Part shown: positions 1,036-63,781 of the stretch, piece after piece
Numbering within the stretch: position 1 is the first letter of the stretch
How the letters are laid out: every line of letters begins with the position of its first letter
Assembly: GCA_951406725.2 (NCBI GenBank)
Contig: OX597842.1
Span: 31,372,001-31,436,000 of the forward strand
DNA length: 64,000 bases
DNA from: Octopus vulgaris
Lineage: Eukaryota
Direction: 5' to 3'
Made by a program: the position numbers and the translations under genes
Notes under the pieces: generated by a model
What the model was told of the DNA's origin: nothing
Databases searched by the model: none
What the model saw: the letters and a program-made list of their open reading frames with translations, nothing else

Positions 1036-1770
1036 GTGATGGTGATGGGTATGATGATGGTGGTGGTGATGAAGTCAATGTTGGTGGTGATGATGATGGT
1101 CATGACGATGATGATGATGGCTATGGTGATGAGGGTGATGATGATGATGATGATGGTGGTGGTGATGAAGGCAATGTTGGTGGTGATGATGATGGTCATG
1201 ACGATGATGATGATGGCTATGGTGATGAGGGTGATGATGATGATGATGATGGTGGTGGTGATGAAGGCAATGTTGGTGGTGATGATGATGACGACGATGA
1301 CGATGATGGTGATGAAGGCAATGTTGGTGATGATGATGATGGTCATGACGATGATGATGATGGCTATGGTGATGAGGGTGATGATGATGATGATGATGGT
1401 GGAGGTGTTGATGACACCAATGATGGTGATGATGATGACGACGATGACGATGATGGTGATGAAGGCAATGTTGGTGATGATGATGATGGTCATCATGATG
1501 ATGATGGCTATGGTGATGATGATGGTGGCGGTGGCAGCAGTGGTGTAGGTGTTGATGACACCAATGATGGTGATGGTGATGGTGATGATGATGATGATGA
1601 TGGCGGTTGTGATAATGCCAAGGGTGATGATTATGATGATGATGATGTTGGCTATGGAGATGGTGGTGGGGATGATAATGGTGGTGGTGGTGGTGGTGGT
1701 GATGGTGATGGCGGTGGTGGTGGTGGTGGTGGAAGCTACAGCAACAATGATGGTGATGATGTTGATGATA
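1036..1770. repeat. Compound (GAT/GGT)n repeat with 96-bp higher-order unit
   Basis: Marker GAAG(T/G)CAATGTTGG at 1071, 1167 and 1263 (96-bp spacing), then irregular spacing. Confidence 0.85.
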
Positions 1771-1929
1771 CAGACACACACACACACGCACACACACACA
1801 CTCTCTCTCTCTCACACACACTGATATATTCATAACTGCAGTGAATTGTAGAATATGTTTAGAAGATGGAGTGGGTGGCATGGTGGGGTTGGAGATTAGG
1901 TTATTGACATCATGGCTAATCATCACCAC

Positions 1930-1964
<35 letters not shown>

Positions 1965-2099
1965 CTGTTTGTCTTTGTCTTCATTTTCCTCCTCCTCTTC
2001 CTCTTCCCCCTCCTCCTCCTCCTCCTCCTCCACATCATCATCGTCGTCATGGTCACCTGTCTACACCACAATGGTTCCTGTTTCTGCGTGCATGAATCT

Positions 2100-3190
<1,091 letters not shown>

Positions 3191-3293
3191 CCTGTCTGTT
3201 TATTAATCTGTAGAGGTGAAATGCCATGGGACATTCTTTGTTTCTTGCCAAACTTTAACAAAAAGATGACATCATATTTCGCAGACACTGTTA

Positions 3294-3341
<48 letters not shown>

Positions 3342-3604
3342 GGTATATATTGTGCTGCATCTATATTGTAGGGTGTGTAGTTTTGCGTATTGAGTACAGG
3401 CTGTATAGTGTTGTGTATATATTATAGATGTAATATATACAATGTATATATTATATCTACAGTGTAGTGTACACACTGGGTGAATGTTATGTCTATATGG
3501 TAGGGTGTATATAGCATTGTGTATAACATTGTATAGTGTGGTGTATATATAGTGGGGGGTATTTCTTACTTCTGTGTTGTAGGGTGAATATTGAAGTGTA
3601 TATA

Positions 3605-24624: not shown

Positions 24625-25745
24625 TGCTGTTTCTAGCAGTGGTCTAGCTCTAAGCTACCATGTAGAGGTCTCCCTCATTGGCTCATACATACATAAATAC
24701 ATAGATAAGAGAGTAGGGTGTGATATGAGGGAGATTTAGCTGCTATTTCTACCAGGTCTAGCTACCATGTAGAGGTCTCCCTCATTGGCTCATACATACA
24801 TATATACATAGATAAGAGAGTAGGGTGTGATTTGAGAGGAGATTTAGCTGCTATTTCTACCAGGTCTAGCTACCATGTAGAGGTCTCCTCATTGGCTCAT
24901 ACATCATATACATAGATAAGAAGTAGGGTGATGAGGGATTTGCTCTATTTCTACAGGTCTAGCTACTATAGAGGTCTCCTCATTGGCATACATACAATAA
25001 CAGATAAGAGAGTAGGGTGTGATTTGAGGGAGATTTAGGCTGCTATTTCTACCAGGTCTAGCTACCATGTAGAGGTCTCCCTCATTGGCTCATACATACA
25101 TATATACATAGATAAGAGAGTAGGGTGTGATTTGAGGGAGATTTAGCTGCTGAGCTACATGTGGCTCCCATTGGCTCATCATACATATATACATAGATAA
25201 GAGAGTAGGTGATTAGAATTTAGCTGCATTTCTAGGCTAGTAGTAGAGGTCTCCTCATTGGCTCATACATACATTATACATAGATGAGTAGGTGATTGAG
25301 GAGGTTTAGTGCATTTCTACCAGGTCTAGCTACCATGTAGGGTCTCCTCATTGGCTCATCATACATATACATATAGATAAGAGAGTAGGGTGTGATTTGA
25401 GGGAGATTTGGCTGCTATTTCTACCAGGTCTAGCTACCATGTAGAGGTCTCCACCAGGTCATTGGCTCATACATACATATATACATAGATAAGAGAGTAG
25501 GGTGTGATTTGAGGGAGATTTGGCTGCTATTTCTACCAGGTCTAGCTACCATGTAGAGGTCTCCCCCATTGGCTCATACATACATATATACATAGATAAG
25601 AGAGTAGGGTGTGATTTGAGGGAGGTTTGGCTGCTATTTCTACCAGGTCTAGCTACCATGTAGAGGTCTCCTCATTGGCTCATACATCCATATATACATA
25701 GATAAGAGAGTAGGGTGTAATTTGAGAGAGATTTGGCTACTATTT
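24625..25745. repeat. ~107-bp tandem satellite, about 11 units
   Basis: ACCAGGTCTAGCTACCATGTAGAGGTCTCC recurs at 24751, 24859, 25051, 25423, 25535 and 25642. Confidence 0.9.
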
Positions 25746-26302
25746 CTTTTAAATGCAATCACACAACCACCAACCACCACTACCACCATTTCTTAAAGTC
25801 ACATCATTATGAATTCACCACCACCACAACCTCCACAACCACCACCAGCACAGCTACTGCTTTATACCCAACACTCCAGCCCCCAAACCCCACCGCACCC
25901 AACCATGTCTCTACCCCCAGCCCCTTCCTCGTCCCCCCACCTGTCACCGCAATCCCCGCCTTTCTATTCCAAAGAGGAATCTTTTTGCTATAAATAACCG
26001 TTTTCCTCATTTGTCACTCTCTGGTTTCTGTTTCTCTTCTTCAGTTTAGAGACGGAGTTTCTTGGAGAAGATTTTTTCTTTGATTATTTTTAGAGGGTTT
26101 TTTTCTTCTTCTCTGGTTCCATTTGTCTTCTGCCGATATATACACACACAGACATATACACAGGCATATATATTCATGTATATATATATATATATATGTA
26201 CATACACTAACCTACTTTAGTGTGTGTGTATATATATATACATATATATTAATATATGCATAAATACATATACGCGTACATATATATGTATATACATCCA
26301 TA

Positions 26303-62422: not shown

Positions 62423-62800
62423 GTGGCCATGTGGTAAGAAGCTTGCTTCCTAGCCACATGGTTCAGGGTTCAGTCCCACTGCGTGACAGCCTGGGCAAGT
62501 GTCTTCTACTATAGTCTTGGGCTGACCAAAGCCTTTTGAGTGGATTTGGTGGACGGAAACTGAAAAGAAGCCTGTCATGTATTTATATATATATATGTGT
62601 GTGTGCGTGTGTGTGTATGTATATGTATCTGTGTGTGGGTGTGTTTATGTCAATGTAACTTAGCAGTTCGGCAAAAGAAACCAATAGAATAAGTACTAAG
62701 CTTTAAAAAAAAAGTCCTGGGGGTCAGTTGGTTTGAATGAAAGGTGGTGCTCCAGCATGGCCGCAGTTACACGACTGAAACAAGTGAAAGAATAAAAGAA
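62423..62800 (+). mobile_element. SINE family A (diverged)
   Basis: Homology to family A. Confidence 0.8.
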
Positions 62801-62813
62801 TATATAAATATAT

Positions 62814-62856
<43 letters not shown>

Positions 62857-62904
62857 CTTCTCTTTATCTCTCTCGTCATATATCTGTATCTATATATATA
62901 TATA

Positions 62905-63366
62905 TAATAGAAATATTAAAATTACTATGTCTCTCTAAAAGAGATCACGGCAGCGTTCCTGGAAAATAATAGTTATCGCCATACTAATATTAGTATGGCA
63001 ATAACTATTAATTTCCAGGAACGCTGCCGTGATCTCTTTTAGAGAGACTTAGTAATTTTAATATTTCTATTATTGAAGACAAGTGGATGTATTCCACCGA
63101 AACTAGGTAAATAAAACCTTCGAACAGAGATTGTCAGAAGCGACACCTACTGGTCTGACTACGCTACATTGAAAAGGGGCAATACCCCGAAACACGTCTG
63201 TAGCTGTCGGTCAAGTAGTGTGGAGCGACTGACCTCCCTTGTTCGAAGGTTATATGGATACAGTTTGTGTATCAAATAGCTAACTTAAGGCGATGGCCTC
63301 ATGGAGCTAATAAGCGGACAGCTTTTTCTTATTTTTATAAGAATGCCATATTAATATGGCGATAAC

Positions 63367-63372
<6 letters not shown>
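62905..63372 (+). mobile_element. Putative PLE-derived unit: 168-bp palindrome, two hammerhead motifs and a partial direct repeat
   Basis: Palindrome 62905-63072 (3 mismatches seen); hammerheads at 63073-63112 and 63163-63204; ATGGC(A/G)ATAACTATTA at about 62995 and 63356; (TA)n on both flanks. Confidence 0.65.
63163..63204 (+). ncRNA. Type-I hammerhead ribozyme, U3-A8 core variant, GUC cleavage site (after 63198)
   Basis: GCTACA-TTGAAAA-GGGG(caata)CCCC-GAAA-C(ac)G-TC-TGTAGC: 6-bp stem I, 4-bp stem II, minimal stem III. Confidence 0.75.
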
Positions 63373-63411
<39 letters not shown>

Positions 63412-63412
<1 letters not shown>

Positions 63413-63623
63413 TCTTTTTTACTCCTTTACTTGTTTCAGTCATTTGACTGCGGCCATGCTGGAGCACCACCTTTAATCGAGCAAATTGACCCCGGGACTT
63501 ATTCTTTTGTAAGCCCAGTACTTATTCTATCGGTCTCTTTTGCCGAACTGCTAAGTAACGGGGACATAAACACACCAGCATCGGTTGTCAAGCAATGCCA
63601 GGAGGACAAACACAGACACACAA

Positions 63624-63663
<40 letters not shown>

Positions 63664-63781
63664 ATATATACGACGGGCTTCTTTCAGTTTCCGTCTACCA
63701 AATCCACTCACAAGGCTTTGTTCGGCCCGAGGCTATAGTAGAAGACACTTGCCCAAGATGCCACACAGTGGGACTGAACCC
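63412..63781 (-). mobile_element. SINE family A (head truncated)
   Basis: Homology to family A. Confidence 0.85.

What the first reader, a model, noticed from the sequence alone, without database searches (positions are those of the whole stretch)
63115..63251. Intact-looking U3-A8 hammerhead at the tip of a ~137-nt rod-like hairpin
Seen: GCTACA/TGTAGC stem I, core TTGAAAA, GGGG/CCCC stem II, GAAAC..GTC. Stem I continues through CTGAC/GTCGG, CTACT/AGTAG and GTCAG/CTGAC to a perfect 12-bp closing helix AACCTTCGAACA/TGTTCGAAGGTT. Known: positions 3 and 8 form a Watson-Crick pair in the active hammerhead, so C3U with G8A is compensatory, and bulged stem I can contact loop II. Inference: a selected, probably active ribozyme that strict CUGANGA searches would miss; the minimal stem III may require dimerisation.
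Basis: partly seen in the sequence, partly recalled or inferred. Interest (0 to 1): 0.75.

Follow-up and report, generated by a model that had tools for sequence, protein, structure and literature searches.

The report
One copy of a hammerhead retrozyme
This is one of well over a thousand genomic copies of a 362-base non-coding jumping repeat of a known kind (a retrozyme) carrying a predicted self-cutting RNA with an already published core variant; the family likely cuts as a pair and is likely pasted in by Penelope-type enzymes, but this copy has a rare mutation that would probably weaken its own cutting.

Summary
The hammerhead is real. It lies in a 362-bp unit with 945 exact copies of a 27-nt core in this 2.8-Gb octopus-like genome, many in tandem: an animal non-LTR retrozyme. 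U3-A8 is family-wide and already published (2011, 2014). Sister subfamilies show compensatory stem changes, and the stem III hexamer switches among three palindromes (ACGCGU, ACAUGU, ACUAGU), good evidence for selection on dimer cleavage. This copy reads ACACGU (8 genomic matches against 892 for ACGCGU) and has only one hammerhead in its insertion, so 'probably active' fits the family, not this copy. Insertions carry the Penelope footprint: (TA)n targets, head-to-head arms and two fixed 3' ends 62 nt apart; 50 of 53 two-ended insertions use one of each. Intact Neptune-type Penelope elements with their own U3-A8 hammerhead exist in the genome, but no pLTR homology to the retrozyme was found. 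Cleavage, circularisation and expression are untested. The scan reported this family and pattern before on other DNA. New member of a known kind.

The parts
62891..62903 (.). (TA)n target repeat, left flank
   Evidence: sequence; 107 of 166 family 3' ends abut AT/TA-rich 30-nt flanks
62904..62988 (-). Inverted short arm (85 nt) of the insertion; its outer end is the fixed 3' end E1 (equivalent to 63073)
   Evidence: 85-nt arm 96% complementary to 62989-63073, no spacer
62989..63372 (+). Long arm (384 nt = one 362-nt unit plus 22 nt); outer end is the fixed 3' end E2 (63372)
   Evidence: direct repeat 62987-63010 / 63348-63371
63011..63372 (+). One retrozyme repeat unit, 362 nt, 40% GC, longest ATG ORF 17 aa
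   Evidence: tandem period 361-363 in sister loci; ORFs and identity 91.5-98.6% to 77 other units; circular fold -115 kcal/mol, z -7.4 against 60 shuffles
63011..63073 (+). 'Tail' between the two fixed 3' ends E2 and E1 (62 nt)
   Evidence: 147 of 166 3' ends fall at E1 or E2
63115..63251 (+). Rod-like extended stem I carrying the hammerhead
63160..63162 (+). UAC bulge of internal loop 1 (with U63205 opposite); predicted tertiary contact to loop II
   Evidence: sequence; matches Schistosoma motif described in PMC2632901; U63205 invariant in 24 rows
63163..63204 (+). Type I hammerhead: stem I 63163-68/63199-204, core U3 U4 G5 A6 A7 A8 A9 (63169-75), stem II 63176-79/63185-88, G12 A13 A14 A15.1 (63189-92), predicted cleavage after C63198
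   Evidence: 945 exact copies of the 27-nt core, control 0
63192..63197 (+). Helix III hexamer ACACGU; family form is the palindrome ACGCGU; A63194 is a rare private change
   Evidence: 892 against 8 exact genomic matches; 42 of 44 aligned segments have G
63345..63360 (+). Small hairpin just upstream of E2; its copy at 62977-63000 forms the centre of the head-to-head junction
63373..63410 (.). (TA)n target repeat, right flank
   Evidence: sequence

Best explanation
This is one young, dispersed copy of a 362-nt non-coding animal retrozyme whose U3-A8 hammerhead is predicted to cut only as a pair and whose RNA is likely copied into (TA)n DNA by a Penelope-like (probably Neptune-type) reverse transcriptase-endonuclease supplied in trans. 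Shown from sequence: the unit, copy number, tandem arrays, conserved core, covarying stems, palindromic helix III, two fixed 3' ends, head-to-head arms and (TA)n targets. Inferred: transcripts of tandem copies fold so that two hammerheads exchange strands through the palindrome and form a 6-bp helix III; cleavage after C17 releases 362-nt monomers, which likely circularise as in mussel, coral and axolotl retrozymes; the Penelope protein nicks both strands of a (TA)n tract and primes cDNA at E2 on one end and E1 on the other; the two cDNAs, often longer than one unit, are joined at their far ends. The window copy (85-nt E1 arm plus 384-nt E2 arm) is such a product. It has one hammerhead and a broken palindrome (A63194), so it is likely a poor or dead cutter on its own.
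For: Copy number: 945 exact 27-nt core matches, control 0; 1,748 matches to a looser U3-A8/ACGCGU pattern, control 37; 667 to a pattern catching mostly other subfamilies, control 1. Tandem period ~362. Covariation on 24 copies from several subfamilies: 93.1% of cells paired against 31-44% for slid controls; 33 double-sided cells against 11.3 shuffled (0/500); switches A-U/G-C at 63149-63216, 63158-63207, 63166-63201 and 63176-63188. Helix III centre, left free in the search pattern: 97 of the first 100 listed matches palindromic (77 CATG, 15 CTAG, 5 CGCG, counted by eye); 118 of 129 distinct cores in fetched loci; A-U 15, G-C 5, U-A 3, unpaired 1 (the window) in the alignment. Penelope footprint: 67 of 99 distinct insertions head-to-head; 147 of 166 3' ends at E1 or E2; 50 of 53 insertions with both ends at fixed sites use one of each (p 5.5e-12). 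This matches the inverted 5' copy, one-sided tail and (TA)n bias described for PLEs (PMC8557442 passages) and two internal RT start sites with both-strand cleavage shown in vitro (PMC11167929). 75 of 166 arms exceed one unit and only 3 of 166 5' ends lie within 4 nt of the cleavage site, so the template was circular or uncleaved multimer, not the linear monomer. Intact 781-aa RT + GIY-YIG ORFs exist, and 32 of 45 PLE rows (3 pairs are the same locus) carry a U3-A8 hammerhead with ACAUGU near a (TA)n end, with two 3' ends (22 short, 14 tailed).
Against: No cleavage, circle or transcript shown. No significant primary-sequence likeness between the retrozyme and the pLTRs examined (blastn; local alignment to the 781-aa family end p 0.77, tails p 0.39), so the partner is unidentified. 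Covariation counts sequences from few subfamilies, not independent events; pairs with double change 8 against 5.9 shuffled (23/500) and pair-type count not above shuffles (225/500); the outer closing-helix pair 63116-63250 is broken in 10 of 24 and the U-G at 63156 in 18 of 24. Loci were chosen by matching the hammerhead or long stretches, which biases arm lengths upward. In vitro only 1 of 9 predicted Xenopus retrozyme dimers cleaved (bioRxiv 10.64898/2026.07.22.740005); PLE hammerheads are weak and cleavage was not needed for PAc insertion.
Confidence: 0.8

Rival explanations
1. The unit is mobilised by PLE machinery from uncleaved read-through transcripts of tandem arrays; the hammerhead is real but works late, only with protein help, or is a passenger, and no RNA circle is involved.
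For: PAc hammerhead cleaves only with protein and is dispensable for insertion in vitro; unprocessed RNA is the main template (PMC11167929). Over-unit arms (75 of 166) fit multimer transcripts as well as circles; arrays of up to ~6 units exist.
Against: Three different palindromes and compensatory stems are maintained across subfamilies, so the fold is selected during mobilisation. The hammerhead has canonical stem sizes and tertiary motif, like retrozymes shown to cleave and circularise (PMC7229834).
Confidence: 0.15
2. The repeat is the solo pLTR (5'-truncated end) of an autonomous Penelope element that was not sampled, not a separate non-autonomous element.
For: Same insertion footprint as PLEs; PLE insertions are mostly 5'-truncated (PMC8557442). 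Only 46 PLE loci plus 8 extensions were examined out of 6,136 GIY-YIG candidates.
Against: Units join directly head-to-tail with no ORF between; arms run from one unit into the next; among retrozyme loci PLE protein matches occur in 5, none as an ORF running into the unit; no ORF over 17 aa from ATG in the unit.
Confidence: 0.04
3. It is a satellite spread by DNA-level recombination, with a hammerhead-like motif kept by descent only.
For: Tandem arrays exist; near-identical copies conserve everything regardless of function.
Against: Copies are dispersed over many contigs as short two-armed insertions with fixed ends in (TA)n; compensatory and palindrome-preserving changes between subfamilies.
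Confidence: 0.01

Closest known systems
Animal non-LTR retrozymes (Cervera & de la Pena 2020, PMC7229834; parts 2-3 of 6 and passages read; Li et al. 2026, bioRxiv 10.64898/2026.07.22.740005; parts 1-3 of 5 read)
   Same: Non-coding tandem unit of 150-450 bp, GC under 50%, one type I hammerhead per unit, short palindromic helix III, highly self-paired predicted circle; mussel units are 350-390 bp; co-occur with PLEs and proposed to be non-autonomous PLE derivatives.
   Different: U3-A8 core throughout the family; octopus-like host ('octopus' and 'cephalopod' do not occur in the PMC7229834 main text; supplements not read); mostly short head-to-head insertions with two fixed ends rather than long arrays; no pLTR homology found, unlike 24 of 57 Xenopus families.
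PLE-associated U3-A8 hammerheads of Schistosoma mansoni Cercyon (PMC4209133, parts 1-2 of 4 read) and natural U3-A8 variants (PMC3088659, passages)
   Same: Same core covariation; palindromic helix III; predicted to act as dimers.
   Different: Here the stems are canonical (6-bp stem I, 4-bp stem II, Schistosoma-like UAC bulge and CAAUA/CAAAUA loop) and extended into a 137-nt rod, not a minimal PLE hammerhead.
EN+ Penelope-like element insertions: PAc of Anolis (PMC11167929, parts 1-2 of 4 read); PLE structure in Craig et al. 2021 (PMC8557442, passages)
   Same: AT-rich target, two internal RT start sites downstream of the hammerhead, tail on one end only, inverted 5' copy.
   Different: Non-coding; tail is 62 nt rather than 30-40; both arms can exceed one unit.

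Membership tests
Type I hammerhead ribozyme | Core Y3UGAN7R8A...GAAA...UH with a 3-8 Watson-Crick pair | tested here: met
   U3/A8 in the window and in 127 of 129 fetched cores; N7 varies A/T/C
Type I hammerhead ribozyme | Stems I and II with open stem I, supported by covariation | tested here: met
   double-sided changes in stem I and at pair 10.1-11.1
Type I hammerhead ribozyme | Helix III, as monomer or through a palindromic dimer | tested here: inconclusive
   Family met (118 of 129 palindromic). Window copy not met: ACACGU, homoduplex -2.3 kcal/mol, monomer pairing probability 0.0
Type I hammerhead ribozyme | Match to an Rfam hammerhead model | tested here: not met
   No hammerhead hit at E<=10 for the window or a CAAAUA-loop copy; the variant core and minimal helix III may account for it (inference)
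Type I hammerhead ribozyme | Self-cleavage | not testable with these tools
   needs in vitro assay
Non-LTR retrozyme | Short non-coding unit, tandem copies each with a type I hammerhead, low GC, no LTR | tested here: met
   362 nt, 40% GC, longest ATG ORF 17 aa, arrays with one core per unit; the window insertion itself has one core only
Non-LTR retrozyme | Highly self-paired monomer | tested here: met
   circular fold -115 kcal/mol, z -7.4, 61% paired
Non-LTR retrozyme | Expressed as linear and circular RNA | tested here: inconclusive
   only contigs from runs guessed to be RNA were available; contigs cannot show circles or ends
Non-autonomous Penelope-like element | PLE insertion footprint (inverted 5' copy, one-sided tail, microsatellite target) | tested here: met
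   67 of 99 inverted; 50 of 53 one end of each kind; 107 of 166 3' ends in AT-rich flank
Non-autonomous Penelope-like element | Sequence homology to the pLTR of an autonomous PLE | tested here: not met
   none in 46 PLE loci and 8 extensions; sampling incomplete
Neptune/Nematis-type PLE (candidate partner) | RT, CX2-5CxxC linker, C-terminal GIY-YIG | tested here: met
   781-aa ORF: RVT_1 28.9 bits (cut-off 29.6), GIY-YIG 30.6 bits; CX4CxxC linker read; no tree built, so the clade name is an inference

The most novel reading that the evidence does not exclude
A small ribozyme RNA circle hijacks a Penelope enzyme dimer that primes both ends of one double-strand break from two fixed sites 62 nt apart on the same RNA, one site per end (50 of 53 insertions), rolling round the circle on each side. 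The helix III palindrome (ACGCGU, ACAUGU, ACUAGU) acts as a pairing code that decides which ribozymes can dimerise; older subfamilies share ACAUGU with the genome's autonomous Neptune-type element, while the window's young subfamily has switched away from it.
Probability: 0.4. Interest if true: 0.6.

Novelty: new member of a known kind. Interest (0 to 1): 0.3.

Why it matters
The ribozyme variant and the element class are both in print, so the locus itself is ordinary. The value lies in the family: more than a thousand young copies give natural covariation for dimer-dependent cleavage (three palindromes) and a sharp rule for insertion ends (one E1 and one E2 per insertion). These make two open questions testable in a 362-nt substrate: how Penelope enzymes build their inverted, one-tailed insertions, and whether retrozyme circles are the template. 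The window allele is a ready natural loss-of-palindrome control.

Tried and rejected
Rfam: no hammerhead match in four scans of this element or a sister copy; the miRNA-family hits at 62918-63059 reflect only the inversion palindrome and are below gathering scores. Expression: no RNA holder listed on record; contigs of four runs only guessed to be RNA cover the unit, and all that cover 63194 read G, but neighbouring high-copy repeats are covered far more deeply, so this says nothing on expression, ends or circles. No empty-site joint among the joints shown (382 not shown; flanks are skipped repeats). Parent PLE: blastn at word size 7 against 46 PLE loci and 8 extensions, and shuffled local alignments, found no pLTR homology. 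Pile-up of 5' ends at the cleavage site: not seen, 3 of 166. No PLE protein match inside the window. Literature: searches showed no paper describing an octopus retrozyme; one search was swamped by unrelated papers; the O. vulgaris repeat paper has no occurrence of 'hammerhead', 'ribozyme' or 'retrozyme'; Lunse et al. (PLE hammerheads cleave as dimers) is known to me only through a review passage. Supplements of PMC7229834, PMC4209133 and the bioRxiv preprint were not seen and may list cephalopod examples.

Full report
Observation. Every element in the finding is present. The rod 63115-63251 has a 12-bp closing helix and three internal 5-bp helices and leads to a 6-bp stem I, the core UUGAAAA (63169-75), a 4-bp stem II with loop CAAUA, GAAA, the hexamer ACACGU and C17 at 63198. 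The region folds at -64 kcal/mol with z -6.3. A relaxed hammerhead descriptor hits this site only, and nothing in 100 block-shuffled windows. Rfam finds no hammerhead here.

What it is part of. The window lies in a 2.8-Gb, microsatellite-rich genome; 'octopus-like' is my reading of the repeats and genome size plus earlier scan notes, not a label from the genome tool. The best 40 of 2,090 candidates are 97-100% identical to 63090-63375. A 27-nt core has 945 exact matches, control 0, many spaced 361-363 bp apart. The unit is 362 nt, 40% GC, non-coding (longest ATG ORF 17 aa) and folds as a circle at -115 kcal/mol, z -7.4. A second group of subfamilies about 84% identical turned up by chance and has 2,678 candidates. 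These are the features of animal non-LTR retrozymes (PMC7229834; mussel units 350-390 bp).

Selection on the ribozyme. Among 129 distinct cores in fetched loci, 127 are U3-A8, 2 are C3-A8 and none C3-G8; position 7 varies freely (A, T, C). On 24 copies picked by hand from 82 plus the window to cover subfamilies, 93.1% of cells pair, against 31-44% for slid controls, and four pairs switch between A-U and G-C. The number of pairs with double change is only modestly above shuffles (8 against 5.9; 23/500) and the rows are related, so this is support, not proof. The strongest signal is helix III. With its two central bases left free, 97 of the first 100 of 667 listed matches are palindromes of three kinds (77 ACAUGU, 15 ACUAGU, 5 ACGCGU, counted by eye), and 118 of 129 in fetched loci. 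A two-base loop cannot close a monomer helix (pairing probability 0.0), whereas the palindrome gives a 6-bp helix in a double hammerhead, the known route for animal type I hammerheads (PMC4209133; review PMC6765202). The bulge UAC (63160-62), U63205 and loop CAAUA (CAAAUA in sister subfamilies) match the Schistosoma loop 1/loop 2 contact (PMC2632901).

This copy. The window reads ACACGU; the exact 30-nt core has 8 genomic matches with this hexamer and 892 with ACGCGU. The change is a G-to-A at a CpG, likely post-insertion decay (inference). The homoduplex drops from -7.5 to -2.3 kcal/mol, and the insertion holds one hammerhead only.

How it moves. The window insertion is an 85-nt inverted arm (62904-62988) joined without spacer to a 384-nt forward arm (62989-63372) between (TA)n tracts. 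Of 99 distinct insertions (duplicates and loci cut by the fetch window dropped), 67 are head-to-head; 147 of 166 3' ends fall at one of two sites, E2 (63372) and E1 (63073, 62 nt further along the tandem); 107 of 166 abut AT/TA-rich flanks. Of 53 inverted insertions with both ends at fixed sites, 50 use one of each (p 5.5e-12); 14 other inverted insertions have at least one end elsewhere. 75 of 166 arms are longer than 370 nt and only 3 end within 4 nt of the cleavage site (loci were selected on the hammerhead, which inflates lengths). PLE insertions are described with an inverted 5' copy, a tail at one end only and (TA)n bias (PMC8557442), and purified PAc cuts both strands and starts reverse transcription at two internal sites that define the tail (PMC11167929). 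I infer that a PLE enzyme primes from both ends of one break, at E1 and E2, on a circular or multimeric template.

The partner. A GIY-YIG search gave 148 matches among 150 scored of 6,136 candidates, many in 781-aa open frames with RT and a CX4CxxC linker, so Neptune- or Nematis-type (no tree built). 32 of 45 rows carry their own minimal U3-A8 hammerhead with ACAUGU about 100 nt before a (TA)n end, and they too show two 3' ends (22 short, 14 tailed). Other PLE families have U3-A8 cores with ACCGGU. No pLTR aligned to the retrozyme beyond chance. One locus (L141) joins a retrozyme arm directly, without (TA)n, to a PLE ORF fragment and a PLE-like 3' end, a weak hint of shared machinery. The partner remains unidentified.

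Comparison with what is known. U3-A8 was reported in nature in 2011 with prior in vitro activity (PMC3088659) and in about 1,300 S. mansoni PLE-associated motifs (PMC4209133). A 2026 preprint argues that animal retrozymes are non-autonomous PLE sequences; only 1 of its 9 tested dimers cleaved. My searches showed no paper on an octopus retrozyme; supplements were not read. After I had reached this reading, the scan's notes showed the same family and the same two-start pattern reported from other pieces of this genome and from other genomes; these are not independent evidence.

Verdict. Real hammerhead, selected at family level, probably impaired in this copy; new member of a known kind. Interest 0.3. 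The most novel reading not excluded, two-ended priming from fixed sites on a ribozyme circle with a palindrome pairing code, has probability about 0.4 and would merit 0.6.

Noticed in passing
L141:800-2222 (G000:C1:30481819-30484855): A retrozyme arm is joined without (TA)n to an inverted piece of a Neptune-type ORF start (aa 5-81), followed by a degenerate U3-A8 core with ACCGGU and a PLE-like 3' end at (TA)n; a 238-bp part is duplicated in inverted form at 800-1037. Possibly a chimeric retrozyme/PLE insertion.
   Followed up: partly
L091-L101 (for example G000:C16:20834800-20840800): Young Neptune-type PLE family with many intact 781-aa ORFs, in two loci (L094, L099) an overlapping upstream 479-aa open frame with no convincing Pfam match, a minimal U3-A8/ACAUGU hammerhead and two alternative 3' ends.
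   Followed up: partly
L164:1366 and L127, L163, L165, L167 ends: Other PLE families carry ACCGGU-type palindromes after a GAAA/GCAA-like motif; L164 has a full U3-A8 core, suggesting U3-A8 is general among this genome's Neptune-type elements.
   Followed up: no
window 62466-62844 and 63370-63781: The insertion sits at the centre of a larger inverted arrangement of very high-copy SINE-like repeats (three arm pairs, 85-90% complementary).
   Followed up: no
family-wide, unit positions 63031-50, 63231-50, 63331-50: 5' ends of arms cluster in three 20-nt bins (25, 22 and 20 of 166), each at a predicted hairpin or the 3' strand of the closing helix; may mark RT stalling or snap-back joining, or partly alignment artefact.
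   Followed up: no
window 24653-25747: 107-bp minisatellite array in two blocks, about 10 copies.
   Followed up: no
L104:37-590 with 1100-3400: A second-subfamily retrozyme and a PLE lie tail to tail in one long (TA)n tract, consistent with a shared target.
   Followed up: partly
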